64,000 nt of DNA from Candidatus Thorarchaeota archaeon (GTDB lineage Archaea > Asgardarchaeota > Thorarchaeia > Thorarchaeales > Thorarchaeaceae): assembly GCA_048882325.1 (NCBI GenBank), contig JBHLRS010000006.1, positions 62,079 through 126,078 of the forward strand. The letters are read 5' to 3'. Positions 10,787 through 16,419 of this stretch are shown piece by piece; position 1 is the stretch's first letter, and the number at the start of each line of letters is the position of its first letter. The notes under the pieces are model-generated. The model saw only the letters and a program-made list of their open reading frames with translations. It was not told where the DNA came from and searched no databases. The translations under genes and the position numbers were made by a program.

Positions 10787-10850
10787 TAATACTCTGTCTT
10801 AAAGCGCGAGTCGTTCTAAGGCACTCACCGACCTAGTGCGGATTAGAATA

Positions 10851-11627
10851 ATGAAGGGAAACGATCCAATGCACGAGCGACTTCACTCAGAACTTTACGC
10901 ATCTATTGCTACGCTTGACCAGCTGAAGAAACTCTACGATCTTGGTGCAGTGGATATTCGGTCCTACCAACGCGAGTCACAAGCGCTTCTCAACGATGTT
11001 CGTTCACAGATTGAGAATATGCGTCGTCTGGGTCTTGATATTGGACGATTTGTGTCTAGTGAACGTATTATCGAGGTCTTTCCGGAAGCATCGACGCTCC
11101 TGCGACTTGGCAACCTTGCACCACGAAGTACTCCTCAAGGGATGACTATGGACCAATTCTATGACTATGTTGGATTGGCAATACTTGATGTTGCCACAGA
11201 GCACTCATCACAGGGACTCATGGGGCTCGCTGAACTTATTGTCGAGGTTGTACGCCGCCTGCCCGAACTTGAATCAGTGACATACAATGATGTCATTGAG
11301 GCTGTGAACCGAGTTGCCGACAACGGACTTATCCCTGGAATTCGGACTCTCCGTGGTGGTGTGAAAGTTGTAGAACTGAGGCCGCTTGAACTCCGACGCG
11401 ACCAGGCTGATGTGATCAATCTAGCTGCTAGCAAAGGGTATGTGTCAGTGGAGGAAGTCATTATGCAACTCAAGTGGTCAGAAGATCATGCCCGACAAGT
11501 CTTATCGAGCTTGGTCGATGCTGGAATGGCTGTCGCAGACATTCGCTTTTCAACGGGTGGTCGATACTATTTCCCTGGTCTAAGAGCACGCGATACTTCG
11601 GATCCTCGAGGAACTAGTGCATATTGA
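10851..11627 (+). CDS. ESCRT-II Vps22/Vps36 (EAP30)-like protein with N-terminal Vps28-N-like helical domain
   Basis: C-terminal part matches the Vps22 pattern (FYDYVGLAILDV; PLELRRDQADVINLAASKGYVSVEEV..QLKWSEDHARQVL..L...G.A..D....RYYFPGL). N-terminus ELYASIATLDQLKKLY..G.V....Y......LL resembles Vps28-N. Start uncertain (10836/10851/10869). Confidence 0.8.
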   Translation: MKGNDPMHERLHSELYASIATLDQLKKLYDLGAVDIRSYQRESQALLNDVRSQIENMRRLGLDIGRFVSSERIIEVFPEASTLLRLGNLAPRSTPQGMTMDQFYDYVGLAILDVATEHSSQGLMGLAELIVEVVRRLPELESVTYNDVIEAVNRVADNGLIPGIRTLRGGVKVVELRPLELRRDQADVINLAASKGYVSVEEVIMQLKWSEDHARQVLSSLVDAGMAVADIRFSTGGRYYFPGLRARDTSDPRGTSAY

Positions 11628-11629
11628 TT

Positions 11630-12364
11630 CTATGTGGAAACGATAATTGCACCTCGTTTCTCATCAATCCATTCTGCTAATCCTTTCTTCACCATGATTG
11701 CCAGAACTATGTGAATATCCCTCTCTGGGAGAGTAGCAAAGTCTTCATCAACTTCTTGGATGACTATTGACTTCACATCAAGTCTAAGTTTTCCTGTCTT
11801 CAAAGCCCAATGGTATAGAATATCTGCCCAATCCTCAAGTGGTTTCCAGTAAACTCTCAGCTGTCGTTTCTTTTTATCAACCCACTCAGCAACCTCTTTG
11901 TCCACAAGGACTGCCGCAATTTCCTTGAACGAATCGACTTTGTTCCTTAAATCCTTGAAAGGGGGCTCACTTATGAATGTCGCCAGAGATATAATGTGCA
12001 CCTTCTTGTCCTCAGTCCACTCTAAGAGATAGTCTGACCATTCACCCGCCCAGAGTTCCCTGTCTTCTTCTCTAGTAGGCGTTCCATACATCCACTCAGT
12101 TTCTTCAACATCTCCCCAACTGGGCATGATAAAACCAGAATCAGTGGTCAGGGTTTCCATTACTTCTTCAGTCGCACTCTCAGTCTGTTCTTCTTGTTCT
12201 TCTGTTACTACAGGTTCAGTGACCTCAACAACAACTTCTGGACTATGGATTTCTTCTTGCACTCTTGTTTTTTCAACAGAAGGAACCTCAACTTGCTCTT
12301 GTTCTACTGCCTCGGCTTTTTCCTTGGTCTTAGGTTTCTCTCGTTTTTTTTCTCTGACACCCAA
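11630..12364 (-). CDS. vps25: ESCRT-II Vps25-like protein with acidic N-terminal extension
   Basis: WSDYLLEW; AEWVDKKKRQLRVYWKPLEDWADILYHW (Vps25 tandem winged-helix signature); directly downstream of vps4. Confidence 0.85.
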   Translation of the reverse strand: MGVREKKREKPKTKEKAEAVEQEQVEVPSVEKTRVQEEIHSPEVVVEVTEPVVTEEQEEQTESATEEVMETLTTDSGFIMPSWGDVEETEWMYGTPTREEDRELWAGEWSDYLLEWTEDKKVHIISLATFISEPPFKDLRNKVDSFKEIAAVLVDKEVAEWVDKKKRQLRVYWKPLEDWADILYHWALKTGKLRLDVKSIVIQEVDEDFATLPERDIHIVLAIMVKKGLAEWIDEKRGAIIVST

Positions 12365-12367
12365 TCT

Positions 12368-13576
12368 TTAGGAACCCTCCGCCCAGTCAATGTATCTCTT
12401 GACATCCTCTGGAGGGGTTGCAGGTCGAATGTTTTCTATTGCATGCAGGAAATCATCCCTGGATACGGGACGGATGTCGAGTATCTCCTGCTCATCATCC
12501 ATTCTACCAGTCCGTTGCAAATCCCTGATTGGTTCCATTGCCGCCTCACGACACACGACACTAATGTCTCTCCCACTGTATCCTTCAGTAAGGTCAGCGA
12601 GCTCCTCATATTCTACAGTGGGTGAGACCTCGATGTCTTCGATATGAATCTCGAAGATTTTCGCACGGGCTTCTCTGTCGGGAAGTGGAACATGTATCTT
12701 CTTTTCAAACCTCGACCGTAATGCAAAGTCCAACTCCCACGGCAGGTTTGTTGCACCGATGAGCGTTACCCGGTCATCCTCATTACTCGCCAGTCCTTGA
12801 AGTTCAGTTAGTAACTGCGTCTTCAGTCGTCTCTCTCCACCAACATCATCCCCTGATCTTGACACCCCAATTGAATCCAACTCATCAATGAAAATTATTG
12901 CAGGTTGGTTCTTCCTCGCAAGTTCAAAGAGGTTCATGACGAGTCGTTCAGATTCACCAAGCCACTTGCTCACAATATTTGCAGCTGAAACATTGAAGAA
13001 TGTGGCATTGACCTCAGAGGCTACTGCTTTCGCTATCAAAGTTTTTCCGCATCCCGCTGGCCCATAGAATAGGATTCCCCTCCATGGTTGTCTCGCCTTG
13101 CCTATGAATAATTCCGGATGCTTCATGGGTGCTAGAATCGCGTCTTCAATTGCTTGTTTTGCATCTGCTAGCCCGGCTACTTCTGACATCTTGATACTCG
13201 GACGTTCTGTGATTATTGTATCAGAAATCATCTCTCTGAGTCGTTTCTCTTCCTCATCAAGCTCCGGTTCAGCACGTGTGGTTGGCACTGGTTCTGCAGT
13301 ACTTTCATCAACCTTAGGTGGGGCAACAAGACCGTCAACTGGGCCATGCGATTTCTTCTTTATACCTGAGAGATATCTGACCCTGTCTACGCATTCTTGA
13401 GCTCGGTCAAAGTAGTGCTTTTTGATTGAAGGCAATGACGCAGAGTTTGACAGTTTGATGAGGATCTTACTAGCCTTGAGATACTCCTGGCAAGCCTCCT
13501 TCTTCATCCCCTTATTGTCCAATTCTATTGCTTTGGCAAGTAGTGCTTTCAGCCCGTGGTCTACTCGATCCGCCAT
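12368..13576 (-). CDS. vps4: Vps4 AAA ATPase (MIT + AAA)
   Basis: MIT (KAIELDNKG...ACQEYLKA), PWRGILFYGPAGCGKT, SKWLGESE pore loop, IFIDELD, GATNLPWELD, C-terminal helix. Confidence 0.92.
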   Translation of the reverse strand: MADRVDHGLKALLAKAIELDNKGMKKEACQEYLKASKILIKLSNSASLPSIKKHYFDRAQECVDRVRYLSGIKKKSHGPVDGLVAPPKVDESTAEPVPTTRAEPELDEEEKRLREMISDTIITERPSIKMSEVAGLADAKQAIEDAILAPMKHPELFIGKARQPWRGILFYGPAGCGKTLIAKAVASEVNATFFNVSAANIVSKWLGESERLVMNLFELARKNQPAIIFIDELDSIGVSRSGDDVGGERRLKTQLLTELQGLASNEDDRVTLIGATNLPWELDFALRSRFEKKIHVPLPDREARAKIFEIHIEDIEVSPTVEYEELADLTEGYSGRDISVVCREAAMEPIRDLQRTGRMDDEQEILDIRPVSRDDFLHAIENIRPATPPEDVKRYIDWAEGS

Positions 13577-13698
13577 GTGAGTTCATGTGAACTCTGCCTA
13601 TATGGTGTTAAGAATTTCTGTCACACCCGGTACATACACACACTATACAAACAAGTTGACGTCAATACTCTTTTCAGTCGTATGCGCATTGTTAAGCT

Positions 13699-13971
13699 GT
13701 GACAGATACAACTAATCACTATCCTGTCGACATGATGGAATGGCGAGACTGGATCAAGAAGAATCTGGGTTATACAACAGAACAGGGAATCGAGTTTGTT
13801 CGAGCTGGCACTTTTCCGGTATCGGAGCTTGTAGCGGTTTGGCGACAAGAATTCACTGTAGAGAAAGGGTATGTTGCTGATTTCATCCCGGCCTTAGAAC
13901 GTAATAAGATGGGCTTCTTGCGTTGGATATATGCTGACGGAGCTGAGCCTTTTTGGAAAGAATCTGATTGA
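13699..13971 (+). CDS. Hypothetical 90-aa Trp-rich protein within the ESCRT locus
   Basis: Protein-like ORF filling the vps4/ESCRT-III gap; no recognised motif. Confidence 0.6.
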   Translation: MTDTTNHYPVDMMEWRDWIKKNLGYTTEQGIEFVRAGTFPVSELVAVWRQEFTVEKGYVADFIPALERNKMGFLRWIYADGAEPFWKESD

Positions 13972-14054
13972 ATTAGTTGATATCTTCTGTTAACTACGAA
14001 GGTTTAAACGCTATCCTCCCATTGATTGACCTGAGTTAACACACATAGAGTAAG

Positions 14055-14672
14055 GTGAGATTCTTGAGTCCAATTAGAAAGGCATTCTCCTGGGGAAGAA
14101 AGAAACCAGATATTGGTGAGATATCCAGCCGTCTAAGGATTCTATCTAAACAACTAGCACGCCAGAGGAACAAGTTGGAAAAGGAGGAACGAGATACAAA
14201 GGCACGTGCAGTTCGCGCAAGAAAGGCTGGACAGACTGAGGCGTACCGAACATATGCAACAGAAATGGTACGGTTCCGTAGATATGCTCTCGCGGTTGAT
14301 AAATCACGGTTACAAATTCTGAAAATTCTGGCTCACCTGAATCGCGCTCAGACATCCGCAAAAACCACTATAGCACTCCAAGAAGTTGCCAAGATATTAG
14401 GGATGCTTGGTGATGGCACTGATGCTTCAAAGGTTGTTGCAAATGTCGATGAGATTGCTCGACGCCTTGAAGAGTTTGAGATTGAAGCAAGTATATCTGA
14501 CGAAGCTCTCGATTCAACGATGGAAGTGAGTTCAGAAGACCTTACATTTGCCTTTCAGGAAATTGATGCTGAAGCTGGGCTCGCAGATACACCAACTGCT
14601 GCAAGACCTGCTAGCGAGGCTGAAACCCTAGAGGAAGATATCAAAGCGCTAGAACGGGAATTGGGAGTATAA
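14055..14672 (+). CDS. ESCRT-III (Snf7 family, Vps2/24/46-like) subunit
   Basis: N-terminal amphipathic segment, basic helical hairpin (RQRNKLEKEE..KARAVRARKAGQ.EAYRTYATEMVRFR), acidic C-half, MIM1-like tail LEEDIKALEREL; next to vps4. Confidence 0.88.
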   Translation: MRFLSPIRKAFSWGRKKPDIGEISSRLRILSKQLARQRNKLEKEERDTKARAVRARKAGQTEAYRTYATEMVRFRRYALAVDKSRLQILKILAHLNRAQTSAKTTIALQEVAKILGMLGDGTDASKVVANVDEIARRLEEFEIEASISDEALDSTMEVSSEDLTFAFQEIDAEAGLADTPTAARPASEAETLEEDIKALERELGV

Positions 14673-14674
14673 TA

Positions 14675-16234
14675 TTACCAGAGCTGGTCTCGACTCTCTC
14701 TTGTTGCCCGTTCCATCTCACGCATGTTGTGATACGAATCTCTCATCAGATCTCTATATCGCCTGATGAAGTCCTCAGCAACAAGCTGACCACTGCGTAG
14801 CATGTGTACTGTATCCCGAATAGCAGTTTCAATTGACGCAGCATCTCTTCTCAGTGAGTGCATTCTTGGACTCATATCATAAGTGTGACTTGTACTCGGT
14901 CTCCTATCATATTGTCCAATAACTCGATCGAGCTCCTCTCGGAATGACTCTGGTTTTTGGTAGTAGCTATCGTATGGGTATCGCCGAATTGGTGGTGAAT
15001 CCAAATCACTGGAACGATGTCTTGGACCTGGTCGCATCAAAGGCATATCCTCACTATACTGTGACCTGTCATTTGTCGAGAGAAGTGAGTAAACCATTCC
15101 CTCAATCTTCAGTCGAACATCACTAGTGCCGATATCAGTTTGTTCGATTTTCCTGACTCTCTGCATATCTGTTTGGATGTATTTGTCAAATTTTCTTGCA
15201 ATCTCGATATAATCAGGTAGGACTCTCTTTGTTTGGTCTGAGCATGTTGCTTTAATCTCGCCTTGTTTCAACTTCAACACAAGCCGTTTTCTTAGCCTAC
15301 CGTCTTCCTCAATGGACTTTAGATAGAGGAGGGGAAAATCGAATACCGTTTCCATCTTCTTGCGAACCCTGCCGGTTTCAGCAATGAAGAGGAGTCTCTT
15401 GTTCGTAATGTACAGAGTCCCAAACGCCTTGTCATTTTTCAGAAAATCACTCCCTGCTATCTTAACCTCTGGGAGTGCACAGACAGGAAGCTCACCTACT
15501 GCGAGTTGACCGTGCTCGTAGAATGTGGTGAATTGTCCCTTGTAATAATCAAGACCATCAAGCTGTCGCCTCACATCCTTTAGTGTTCCTCTGAGGGGTT
15601 CAAGTGCCTCGTCAACATTCTGTTTGTAGTAGATCCCCATTTCTGTAATTCTGTTTGTTATCCCCTCAACGAATGGAAATTGTGCTGGTTTCCATTGTGT
15701 ATAATCTATGAAATCCTTTGTTTCTGCAGCCATGCGTTTTGCTATGATTTCAGCTTGACTTGAAATCCTATTCTTGATTGCTGGTAGCTCATTTTGAATT
15801 CCTTCAATCTTCTCCTCTATCCACTTGTAATGCAGAAAATTAGCCATCCTGAGGGACACAAGTAATCTCTTCGCGCTAGACAGTTTGTTCGTGAACTCTC
15901 TGAGTTTTGTATGACCATATTGGATGGTCATAATGGCATGTCGCATATCAAGGGCCAAGGTTCTTCTTCTATCTTCAAGGAGCACAACTCTCGATGAATG
16001 GCATCTTGAACAGATGTCCACAGTCTTTCTTCCTTTGCTCAGTTCCTCTGATTCACACTGAGGACATTTTTCAAATTTCTCGCCCGGCATTGGAGTACCA
16101 AGAATGTGGTGACATTCGCTGCAAACGGTGTATTCACTAGACCTAGATTCAAGACATCCTGAACACAGTGCAGCACCACAATCTTCGCACATATGAGTAG
16201 GCCTTTCAGTCTGACAGGATCTGCATTGTCCCAT
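14675..16234 (-). CDS. Zn-finger / coiled-coil / GRAM(PH)-like protein with C-terminal Vps23/37-like steadiness box (putative ESCRT-I scaffold)
   Basis: Six CxxC pairs; long heptad helices; FGTLYITNKRLLF..FPL..LKSIE (GRAM/GLUE-like); Pro/Arg/Ser linker; IETAIRDTVHMLRSGQLVAEDFIRRYRDLMR (steadiness-box-like). ATG 16234 preferred over TTG 16252. Confidence 0.65.
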   Translation of the reverse strand: MGQCRSCQTERPTHMCEDCGAALCSGCLESRSSEYTVCSECHHILGTPMPGEKFEKCPQCESEELSKGRKTVDICSRCHSSRVVLLEDRRRTLALDMRHAIMTIQYGHTKLREFTNKLSSAKRLLVSLRMANFLHYKWIEEKIEGIQNELPAIKNRISSQAEIIAKRMAAETKDFIDYTQWKPAQFPFVEGITNRITEMGIYYKQNVDEALEPLRGTLKDVRRQLDGLDYYKGQFTTFYEHGQLAVGELPVCALPEVKIAGSDFLKNDKAFGTLYITNKRLLFIAETGRVRKKMETVFDFPLLYLKSIEEDGRLRKRLVLKLKQGEIKATCSDQTKRVLPDYIEIARKFDKYIQTDMQRVRKIEQTDIGTSDVRLKIEGMVYSLLSTNDRSQYSEDMPLMRPGPRHRSSDLDSPPIRRYPYDSYYQKPESFREELDRVIGQYDRRPSTSHTYDMSPRMHSLRRDAASIETAIRDTVHMLRSGQLVAEDFIRRYRDLMRDSYHNMREMERATRESRDQLW

Positions 16235-16419
16235 TAGTGAATCTTTTGTCAAATGAGTACCTCCGGTCGTCTATTTACATCGAGGAGTTATCCAAGAATA
16301 ACCCGTGTATTATTCGGGAAACATTGGAGTATCCCTCTTCAAATGTTCAGAAAGTATGTTCAAGCCATATCAGTTATAACCGGCTTGATAGGCTGGAGCT
16401 TAAATCAAAGGGGATTTTC

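What the first reader, a model, noticed from the sequence alone, without database searches (positions are those of the whole stretch)
10851..11627. Apparent ESCRT-I/ESCRT-II fusion: Vps28-N hairpin on a Vps22/36 subunit
Seen: the first ~80 aa (ELYASIATLDQLKKLYDLGAVDIRSYQRESQALLND...DIGRFV......FPEA..LLR) follow the Vps28-N pattern (EL[F/Y]A...T...LEK.Y......Y...C..LL.......I..F......P.A...[I/L]), joined by a short linker (APRSTPQG) to clear EAP30 winged helices. Inference: the fusion replaces the eukaryotic Vps28-CTD/Vps36 bridge.
Basis: partly seen in the sequence, partly recalled or inferred. Interest (0 to 1): 0.82.

Follow-up and report, generated by a model that had tools for sequence, protein, structure and literature searches.

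The report
Vps28 head domain fused to Vps22
This Thorarchaeota gene really does join the N-terminal hairpin domain of the ESCRT-I protein Vps28 to the winged-helix body of the ESCRT-II protein Vps22, probably wiring the two complexes together directly, but the fusion was already reported in 2024.

Summary
The gene at 10869-11627 (+) encodes 252 aa. Residues 1-80 are a true Vps28 N-terminal (steadiness-box) domain. A disordered linker follows at 81-93. The rest is the two winged helices of Vps22/SNF8.

Evidence for the N-terminal domain:
- Its profile matches Asgard Vps28 at 99.5% (E 4e-23) and canonical Vps22 N-terminal helices at 2.1% or less.
- Its AF2 model's 12 best PDB matches are all Vps28-N chains from ESCRT-I headpiece or core structures.

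Distribution:
- The architecture was found in 55 of 59 genomes of the window's own family and in the one genome of its sister family.
- In those genomes no canonical small Vps22 was found, and no Vps28 beyond weak, unconfirmed hits in a BAR-like protein.
- Other Asgard families carry a vps28-vps22 tandem, so a deletion-fusion origin is plausible.

Likely mechanism: the fused domain docks on the Vps23-type steadiness box of the neighbouring Zn-ribbon/PH protein (14675-16252). This rests on an in-silico prediction only.

Novelty: already known. Makarova et al. 2024 (mBio) state that Asgard Vps22 is fused to a steadiness box. Their Table S3 lists a Thorarchaeota Vps22, residues 1-70, matching Pfam VPS28 at 99% HHpred probability. 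What is added here is the lineage distribution, the tandem-gene origin and the predicted partner. The scan's first reader also noted this stretch in another window.

The parts
10869..11627 (+). Gene for the Vps28N-Vps22 fusion protein (252 aa plus stop). In-frame upstream starts at 10836 (GTG) and 10851 (ATG) are probably not used.
   Evidence: ORF. Homologues and the called gene P0001 start at this Met.
10869..11108 (+). Vps28 N-terminal (steadiness-box) domain, residues 1-80. It is a helical hairpin (helices 2-24 and 30-53) plus a small helical cap (58-78).
   Evidence: hhalign 99.5% to Asgard Vps28 positions 21-102. PDB profile search: top 4 hits are yeast Vps28-N. AF2 pLDDT 91. Foldseek top 12 are all Vps28-N, TM 0.52-0.79 (0.72-0.79 for ten of them).
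11109..11147 (+). Flexible linker, residues 81-93 (Pro/Ser/Thr-rich, poorly conserved).
   Evidence: pLDDT about 52 in the AF2 model. Variable columns in the alignment.
11148..11582 (+). Two winged-helix domains of Vps22/SNF8 type (EAP30), residues about 94-238.
   Evidence: Pfam EAP30 E 4e-14. Human SNF8 E 1.3e-16, with residues 100-244 of the 258-aa reading aligned to SNF8 93-239. Foldseek 2zme_A E 2.8e-10.
11630..12364 (-). Vps25 (ESCRT-II), convergent with the fusion gene. It has an acidic N-terminal extension of about 100 aa.
   Evidence: Pfam ESCRT-II PF05871 E 1.3e-14.
12368..13576 (-). Vps4 AAA ATPase with MIT domain, upstream of vps25 on the same strand.
   Evidence: Pfam AAA, AAA_lid_3, Vps4_C and MIT.
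14055..14672 (+). ESCRT-III (Snf7 family) subunit.
   Evidence: Pfam Snf7 E 3.2e-11.
14675..16252 (-). Zn-ribbon / coiled-coil / PH-like / steadiness-box protein, the predicted docking partner. The longest ORF is 525 aa; the called gene is 471 aa. The C-terminal 80 aa (14678-14917) form the strongly conserved Vps23-type hairpin.
   Evidence: Weak bPH/GRAM match. Conserved in Thorarchaeota. C-terminal alignment A4. Same family as Znr_CC_PH_SB cog.011556 of Makarova 2024 and as 'ThorAB25_08990|SB' of Hatano 2022. Predicted interface with the fusion's N-domain.

Best explanation
The gene encodes the ESCRT-II subunit Vps22 of a Thorarchaeote. The usual N-terminal helical domain of Vps22 is replaced by the N-terminal steadiness-box domain of the ESCRT-I subunit Vps28.

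Most likely mechanism:
- The two winged helices do the ordinary Vps22 job. They pair with Vps25, encoded next door, which recruits ESCRT-III and Vps4.
- The Vps28-type hairpin packs against the Vps23-type steadiness-box hairpin at the C-terminus of the neighbouring Zn-ribbon/PH protein, as Vps28-N packs on Vps23-C in the eukaryotic ESCRT-I headpiece.
- The upstream, membrane-binding ESCRT-I-like subunit is thus coupled to ESCRT-II through a covalent link. The non-covalent Vps28-CTD/Vps36 bridge is not needed.

Likely origin: an in-frame deletion inside an ancestral vps28-vps22 gene tandem. It would have removed the Vps28 C-terminal domain, the spacer and the Vps22 N-terminal helices.

Shown here: domain identities, architecture, distribution and gene order. 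Inferred: the binding partner, the loss of the bridge and the deletion origin.
For: Domain identity:
- hhalign of the N-terminal profile against Asgard Vps28 gives 99.5%, E 3.9e-23. Against canonical archaeal or eukaryotic Vps22 it gives 0.3-2.1%.
- The PDB profile search puts yeast Vps28-N (2f6m_B, 2p22_B, 2f66_B, 2caz_B) in the top four.
- The AF2 N-domain model (pLDDT 91) has human and yeast Vps28-N as its 12 best Foldseek hits. TM is 0.72-0.79 for ten of them and 0.52-0.57 for two shorter alignments. The next hits drop to TM 0.36-0.52.
- The body matches SNF8.

Distribution:
- The fusion frame of 250-280 aa was found in 55 of 59 genomes of the own family and 1 of 1 of the sister family. 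In other families the same profile lands on ordinary Vps28 genes.
- Full-length Vps28 passes the Pfam cut-off in 165 of 251 Asgard genomes. In the own family only weak matches were seen (18 of 59). Those inspected lie in a 410-440 aa BAR-like protein, and one of them just passes the cut-off.
- The canonical Vps22 N-helix profile is strong (E 1e-17 to 1e-32) in nearly all other families. In the own family it gives only weak hits, inside proteins of about 800 aa.
- In this genome the Asgard Vps28 HMM hits only this ORF, and a CTD-only HMM hits nothing.

Origin: in 28 of 30 non-Thor Vps28 loci a canonical vps22 follows on the same strand. In 20 of them the gap is 11-113 nt.

Partner: complex prediction with the N-domain and the neighbour's C-terminal 80 aa scored 0.86, with the best of 3 controls at 0.00. 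That mark was reached by 58 of 80 solved complexes and 2 of 110 mismatched pairs. The runs agree in at least 95% of contacts, and the partner's pLDDT is at least 80. The interface uses the conserved ELYASIATLDQLKK helix and the partner's invariant EDFIRRY...SY helix. ESCRT-I headpiece structures are solved, so this pass may reflect likeness rather than independent evidence.

Literature: Makarova 2024 reports Vps22 fused to a steadiness box. Hatano 2022 report that Thorarchaeota Vps22 self-interacts in yeast two-hybrid. They used orthologues of this gene and of the neighbour, with no separate Thor Vps28 construct.
Against: No experiment here shows binding. The complex prediction involves a textbook pair of folds and used my own alignments.

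A Vps28-like signal exists elsewhere in Thorarchaeia, in a 409-aa BAR-like protein:
- Pfam VPS28 matches 5 of 15 members, best E 3e-5.
- The Xenopus Vps28 C-terminal domain 2j9w_A scores E 0.06.
- Eme 2023 describes Vps5-BAR fused to Vps28 in Thorarchaeia.
The CTD bridge may therefore persist in another form, although hhalign to Asgard Vps28 gives only 0.4%.

The same architecture occurs in proteins labelled Ranarchaeia and Odinarchaeia. A single Thor-specific deletion is therefore not the whole story.

The genome is 93% complete.
Confidence: 0.7

Rival explanations
1. The N-terminal segment is just the ordinary N-terminal helical domain of Vps22, which pairs with Vps36 in eukaryotes. The Vps28 likeness would then be a chance resemblance between helical hairpins.
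For: It occupies the same position as SNF8 residues 1-92. The Pfam VPS28 match is below the cut-off.
Against: hhalign to canonical Vps22 (archaeal, eukaryotic or both) gives 0.3-2.1%, against 99.5% to Vps28. jackhmmer from the N-terminus finds none of the canonical Vps22 proteins. The Foldseek top 12 are all Vps28-N, with no Vps22 among them. Archaeal canonical Vps22 aligns to eukaryotic Vps22 over its full length (100%), so a canonical N-domain would have been recognised.
Confidence: 0.02
2. The Vps28-type hairpin serves mainly to dimerise the fusion protein with itself. It would stand in for the Vps22/Vps36 N-helix pairing of the ESCRT-II stalk, rather than dock on the neighbour's steadiness box.
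For: Hatano 2022 report self-interaction of Thorarchaeota Vps22 in yeast two-hybrid. The canonical dimerising N-helices are missing. Steadiness boxes are multimerisation modules.
Against: The predicted heteromeric interface uses the most conserved residues of both proteins. The two roles are compatible: an ESCRT-I headpiece holds three hairpins.
Confidence: 0.2
3. The fusion is an assembly or gene-calling artefact that merges two adjacent genes, vps28 and vps22.
For: vps28 and vps22 are adjacent and co-directional in other Asgard archaea.
Against: The single open frame of 250-280 aa recurs in 55 of 59 related genomes and in many metagenome contigs. It lacks both the Vps28 CTD and the Vps22 N-helices rather than containing a read-through junction.
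Confidence: 0.01

Closest known systems
Thorarchaeota Vps22 (KXH75178.1 in Makarova et al. 2024, asCOG cog.002769 'Vps22#'; ThorAB25_09030 in Hatano et al. 2022)
   Same: Same protein family and architecture. Makarova's Table S3 gives residues 1-70 against PF03997 (VPS28 N-terminal, SB) at HHpred probability 99. The ThorAB25_09030 sequence printed in Hatano's supplement is, by eye, nearly identical to this one, and its neighbours are in the same gene order.
   Different: Nothing essential. This is another species' orthologue. The paper generalises the steadiness-box fusion to the 'Asgard Vps22 family'. Here it was found only in the Thorarchaeia order, plus single Ranarchaeia- and Odinarchaeia-labelled proteins. 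Other Asgard Vps22 proteins carry eukaryote-like N-helices.
Eukaryotic and Asgard Vps28 (ESCRT-I)
   Same: The N-terminal hairpin plus cap is homologous in sequence and superposes on it. It is predicted to contact a Vps23-type steadiness box in the same way.
   Different: There is no C-terminal four-helix bundle, the part that contacts ESCRT-II. Winged helices follow instead.
Eukaryotic Vps22/SNF8 and canonical Asgard Vps22 (ESCRT-II)
   Same: Two winged helices, 27% identity to human SNF8 in the structural alignment, and Vps25 encoded next door.
   Different: It lacks the N-terminal helical domain that pairs with Vps36.
Heimdallarchaeial UEV-Vps23-Vps28 fusion (Hatano 2022)
   Same: Another Asgard rearrangement in which a Vps28 module is covalently joined to a neighbouring ESCRT subunit.
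   Different: There the whole Vps28 is joined to the ESCRT-I partner Vps23. Here only Vps28-N is joined, and to the ESCRT-II subunit, crossing the complex boundary.

Membership tests
Vps22/SNF8 (EAP30, ESCRT-II) | Tandem winged-helix domains matching the EAP30 profile above its curated cut-off | tested here: met
   PF04157 scores 53.3 bits against a cut-off of 26.8. SNF8 E 1.3e-16. Foldseek 2zme_A E 2.8e-10.
Vps22/SNF8 (EAP30, ESCRT-II) | N-terminal helical domain shared by eukaryotic and canonical Asgard Vps22 (EAP30 profile positions 1-80) | tested here: not met
   The EAP30 match starts at profile position 82. hhalign of the N-terminus against canonical Vps22 gives 0.3-2.1%. The canonical N-helix profile finds nothing in this genome.
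Vps22/SNF8 (EAP30, ESCRT-II) | Binds Vps25 and forms the ESCRT-II stalk | not testable with these tools
   vps25 is adjacent. Hatano 2022 report Thor Vps22 self-interaction in yeast two-hybrid.
Vps28 (ESCRT-I) | N-terminal helical hairpin (steadiness-box) domain | tested here: met
   hhalign 99.5%, E 3.9e-23. Foldseek top 12 are Vps28-N. PDB profile top 4 are Vps28-N.
Vps28 (ESCRT-I) | C-terminal four-helix bundle that contacts ESCRT-II | tested here: not met
   The Asgard Vps28 HMM matches only positions 15-96 of 213. The CTD-only HMM has no hit in this ORF or in the genome.
Vps28 (ESCRT-I) | Pfam PF03997 gathering score | tested here: not met
   14.9 bits against a cut-off of 24.5. 11 of 18 orthologues match only weakly.
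Vps28 (ESCRT-I) | Packs against a Vps23-type steadiness box | tested here: inconclusive
   In-silico only. Score 0.86 against a best control of 0.00. The mark was reached by 58 of 80 solved and 2 of 110 mismatched pairs. Like complexes are solved, so the pass may come from memory.
Asgard SB-fused Vps22 ('Vps22#', cog.002769; Makarova 2024) | Steadiness box at the N-terminus followed by two winged helices, encoded in the ESCRT cluster | tested here: met
   AF2 architecture, locus content, published description.

The most novel reading that the evidence does not exclude
Thorarchaeia run a merged, ubiquitin-independent ESCRT-I/II complex made by splitting Vps28.
- The N-domain was welded to Vps22 by a deletion of about 650 nt in the ancestral vps28-vps22 tandem.
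- A remnant of the C-domain ended up in a BAR-domain protein.
- The Vps36-type PH and Zn modules sit on the Vps23-like subunit.
The steadiness-box contact would then be the only link between cargo or membrane recognition and ESCRT-II. The published statement that Asgard Vps22 in general carries a steadiness box would need narrowing to this lineage and a few others.
Probability: 0.4. Interest if true: 0.5.

Novelty: already known. Interest (0 to 1): 0.3.

Why it matters
Asgard ESCRT systems are the best available window on how the eukaryotic ESCRT-I/II/III cascade was assembled. A natural covalent link between an ESCRT-I module and an ESCRT-II subunit shows that the complex boundaries were fluid. 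It also offers a simpler two-protein system for studying headpiece assembly and ESCRT-II recruitment in a lineage without ubiquitin. The fusion itself is published. The value here is confirmation, the finding that it is lineage-restricted rather than general to Asgard Vps22, a concrete origin scenario, and a testable partner.

Tried and rejected
- Pfam alone could not decide. VPS28 scored E 0.023, and 11 of 18 orthologues gave only weak hits.
- phmmer against the PDB aligned only the winged helices.
- Foldseek with the full-length model returned only Vps22, Vps36 and other winged-helix proteins, so the N-domain had to be folded alone.
- I looked for a separate Vps28 in the genome. The PF03997 hits on contigs C4 and C58 are weak, E 0.09-0.14.
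- The C4 protein (409 aa, conserved in 56 of 60 relatives) gives 0.4% by hhalign against Asgard Vps28 and E of 0.05 or worse with Asgard Vps28 HMMs. It also gives recurrent weak Pfam VPS28 and BAR hits and 2j9w_A at E 0.06. This is left unresolved, not rejected.
- The weak EAP30 hit on contig C9 is the winged helix of MCM and is not relevant.
- Hatano's Fig. 5A, the two-hybrid map, could not be read. Whether they saw the Thor SB-Vps22 interaction is therefore unknown.
- No tree was built to test single against multiple origins of the fusion.

Full report
**What is there.** The window comes from a Thorarchaeote; source names of near-identical proteins say so. Positions 10836-16252 hold an ESCRT cluster:
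- the gene in question (+ strand);
- vps25 (11630-12364, -);
- vps4 (12368-13576, -);
- a 90-aa ORF with no family match (13699-13971, +);
- an ESCRT-III gene (14055-14672, +);
- a 525-aa Zn-ribbon/PH-like protein (14675-16252, -).

The gene's likely start is the ATG at 10869. Most of the 120 listed homologues, and the called gene (252 aa), begin there.

**Checking the observation.** Pfam sees EAP30 only from profile position 82 onward (E 4e-14). It also gives a sub-threshold VPS28 match, residues 18-74 against profile positions 2-60 (E 0.023). Human SNF8 aligns from its residue 93, so the first 90 or so residues are unaccounted for by Vps22.

I built a profile of 17 N-termini from EAP30-fused proteins (A2).
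- Against the PDB its four best hits are yeast Vps28-N in ESCRT-I core structures, E 0.01.
- Against 251 Asgard genomes it finds the fusion gene in the window's own family. In other families it finds the bona fide Vps28 genes at E 1e-22 to 1e-14, at the same loci as full-length PF03997 matches.
- hhalign against an alignment of those Vps28 proteins gives 99.5%, E 3.9e-23, over 82 columns in the Vps28 N-terminal half. Against canonical Vps22, archaeal or eukaryotic, it gives 0.3-2.1%.
- The reverse test also holds. An HMM of non-Thor Vps28 hits only this ORF among 24,229 ORFs of the genome, at E 1.3e-15 and through its N-terminal half only.

**Structure.** The full-length AF2 model has mean pLDDT 80. 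It shows a hairpin (helices 2-24 and 30-53), a small helical cap (58-78), a low-confidence linker (80-93) and two winged helices. Its best PDB matches are SNF8/Vps22. The N-domain folded alone has pLDDT 91 and pTM 0.80. Its twelve best PDB matches are all Vps28-N: human 6VME and yeast 2F6M, 2CAZ, 2P22 and 2F66. Ten have TM 0.72-0.79 over 78-87 columns; two shorter alignments have TM 0.52-0.57. The E-values are weak (0.1-1) because the domain is small. Unrelated helical proteins follow at TM 0.36-0.52.

**Distribution.**
- The fusion frame of 250-280 aa was found in 55 of 59 genomes of the own family and in the single genome of the sister family.
- A canonical Vps22 N-helix profile (A5) gives E 1e-17 to 1e-32 in 240-255 aa frames in nearly every other Asgard family. 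In the own family it gives only weak hits, inside proteins of about 800 aa.
- Archaeal canonical Vps22 aligns with eukaryotic Vps22 over its full length.
- Full-length Vps28 passes the Pfam cut-off in 165 of 251 genomes. In the own family only weak hits appear. Those inspected lie in a 410-440 aa helical protein, and one of them just passes the cut-off.
- Proteins with the same Vps28N-linker-WH architecture also exist under Ranarchaeia and Odinarchaeia MAG labels.

These are samples of incomplete genomes, so the correct wording is 'not found in those searched', not 'absent'.

**Origin.** In 28 of 30 non-Thor Vps28 loci a canonical vps22 follows on the same strand. In 20 of them it lies 11-113 nt after the Vps28 C-terminal domain. 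In some of the others an extra free-standing Vps28-CTD ORF lies between the two genes. An in-frame deletion running from the Vps28 inter-domain linker to just before the first winged helix of Vps22 would produce exactly the Thor protein. This is an inference.

**Mechanism.** The neighbour's C-terminal 60 or so residues are nearly invariant across Thorarchaeota. From memory they look like a TSG101/Vps23 steadiness box; that is a lead only, and Pfam found nothing there. The family is Makarova's Znr_CC_PH_SB, and it is the protein labelled 'SB' in Hatano's Thor two-hybrid set.

Complex prediction with the N-domain and this C-terminus scored 0.86, with the best of three controls at 0.00. That mark was reached by 58 of 80 solved complexes and 2 of 110 mismatched pairs. 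The runs agree in at least 95% of contacts, and the partner's pLDDT is at least 80. ESCRT-I headpiece structures are solved, so the pass may reflect likeness rather than independent support.

I therefore propose, at about 65-70%, that the hairpins dock as in the ESCRT-I headpiece. The PH/Zn-ribbon subunit would thus be tied directly to Vps22-Vps25 and then to ESCRT-III and Vps4. Self-association through the same domain is a compatible alternative, since Hatano report Thor Vps22 self-interaction.

**Does it replace the Vps28-CTD bridge?** No Vps28 CTD was found in this 93%-complete genome with an Asgard CTD profile. However, a conserved 409-aa BAR-like protein on another contig gives recurrent weak VPS28 and BAR matches, and the Xenopus Vps28-CTD structure scores E 0.06. 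Eme 2023 describes Thorarchaeial Vps5-BAR fused to Vps28. Makarova lists a Thor 'BAR-SB' protein matching 2J9U_A at 84%. hhalign against Asgard Vps28 gave 0.4%. The fate of the CTD is therefore open.

**Novelty.** Makarova et al. 2024 (PMC10936438) write that Asgard Vps22 family proteins are fused to a steadiness box. Their Table S3 lists Thorarchaeota Vps22 KXH75178.1, residues 1-70, against PF03997 (VPS28 N-terminal domain, SB) at 99%. Hatano 2022 worked with the orthologue ThorAB25_09030. The finding is real but known.

Noticed in passing
14675-16252 (-): The Zn-ribbon/coiled-coil/PH-like/steadiness-box protein has three competing starts. The longest ORF is 525 aa, many homologues are 505 aa, and the called gene is 471 aa. 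The 471-aa call would cut off the first Cys-rich ribbon.
   Followed up: partly
13699-13971 (+): A 90-aa Trp-rich ORF with no Pfam match lies between vps4 and the ESCRT-III gene, co-oriented with ESCRT-III.
   Followed up: no
11630-12364 (-): Vps25 carries an acidic, low-complexity N-terminal extension of about 100 aa before its winged helices. The Pfam match starts at residue 104.
   Followed up: no
4504-5811 and 5935-7182 (+): Two tandem paralogues with a C-terminal Ras/Roc-type GTPase domain (Pfam Ras E 1e-12) behind an unassigned N-terminal region of about 210-230 aa. An LRR protein gene lies upstream (3689-4312, -).
   Followed up: no
L075:895-3309 (G000 contig C36): An 805-aa protein with a C-terminal EAP30-like region: PF04157 positions 38-214, E 2.8e-5, just under the cut-off. 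Relatives of about 780-860 aa give weak hits to the canonical Vps22 N-helix profile. This is a second, long EAP30 paralogue in Thorarchaeia and could be a Vps36-like partner.
   Followed up: partly
L077:1501-2727 (G000 contig C4, - strand): A 409-aa helical protein conserved in 56 of 60 related genomes, with weak BAR and VPS28 Pfam signals and a weak match to the Vps28 C-terminal domain 2j9w_A. It is probably the 'Vps5-BAR fused to Vps28' of Eme 2023.
   Followed up: partly
L015, L019, L027 (non-Thor Asgard loci): Free-standing ORFs of 94-104 aa matching only the Vps28 C-terminal domain sit between vps28 and vps22. Makarova 2024 mention this.
   Followed up: no
G000 contig C35:10222-13302 (+): An open frame of 1027 aa with a weak match (E 0.004) to the Asgard Vps28 N-domain profile at residues 291-351. 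It may be another steadiness-box-bearing protein.
   Followed up: no
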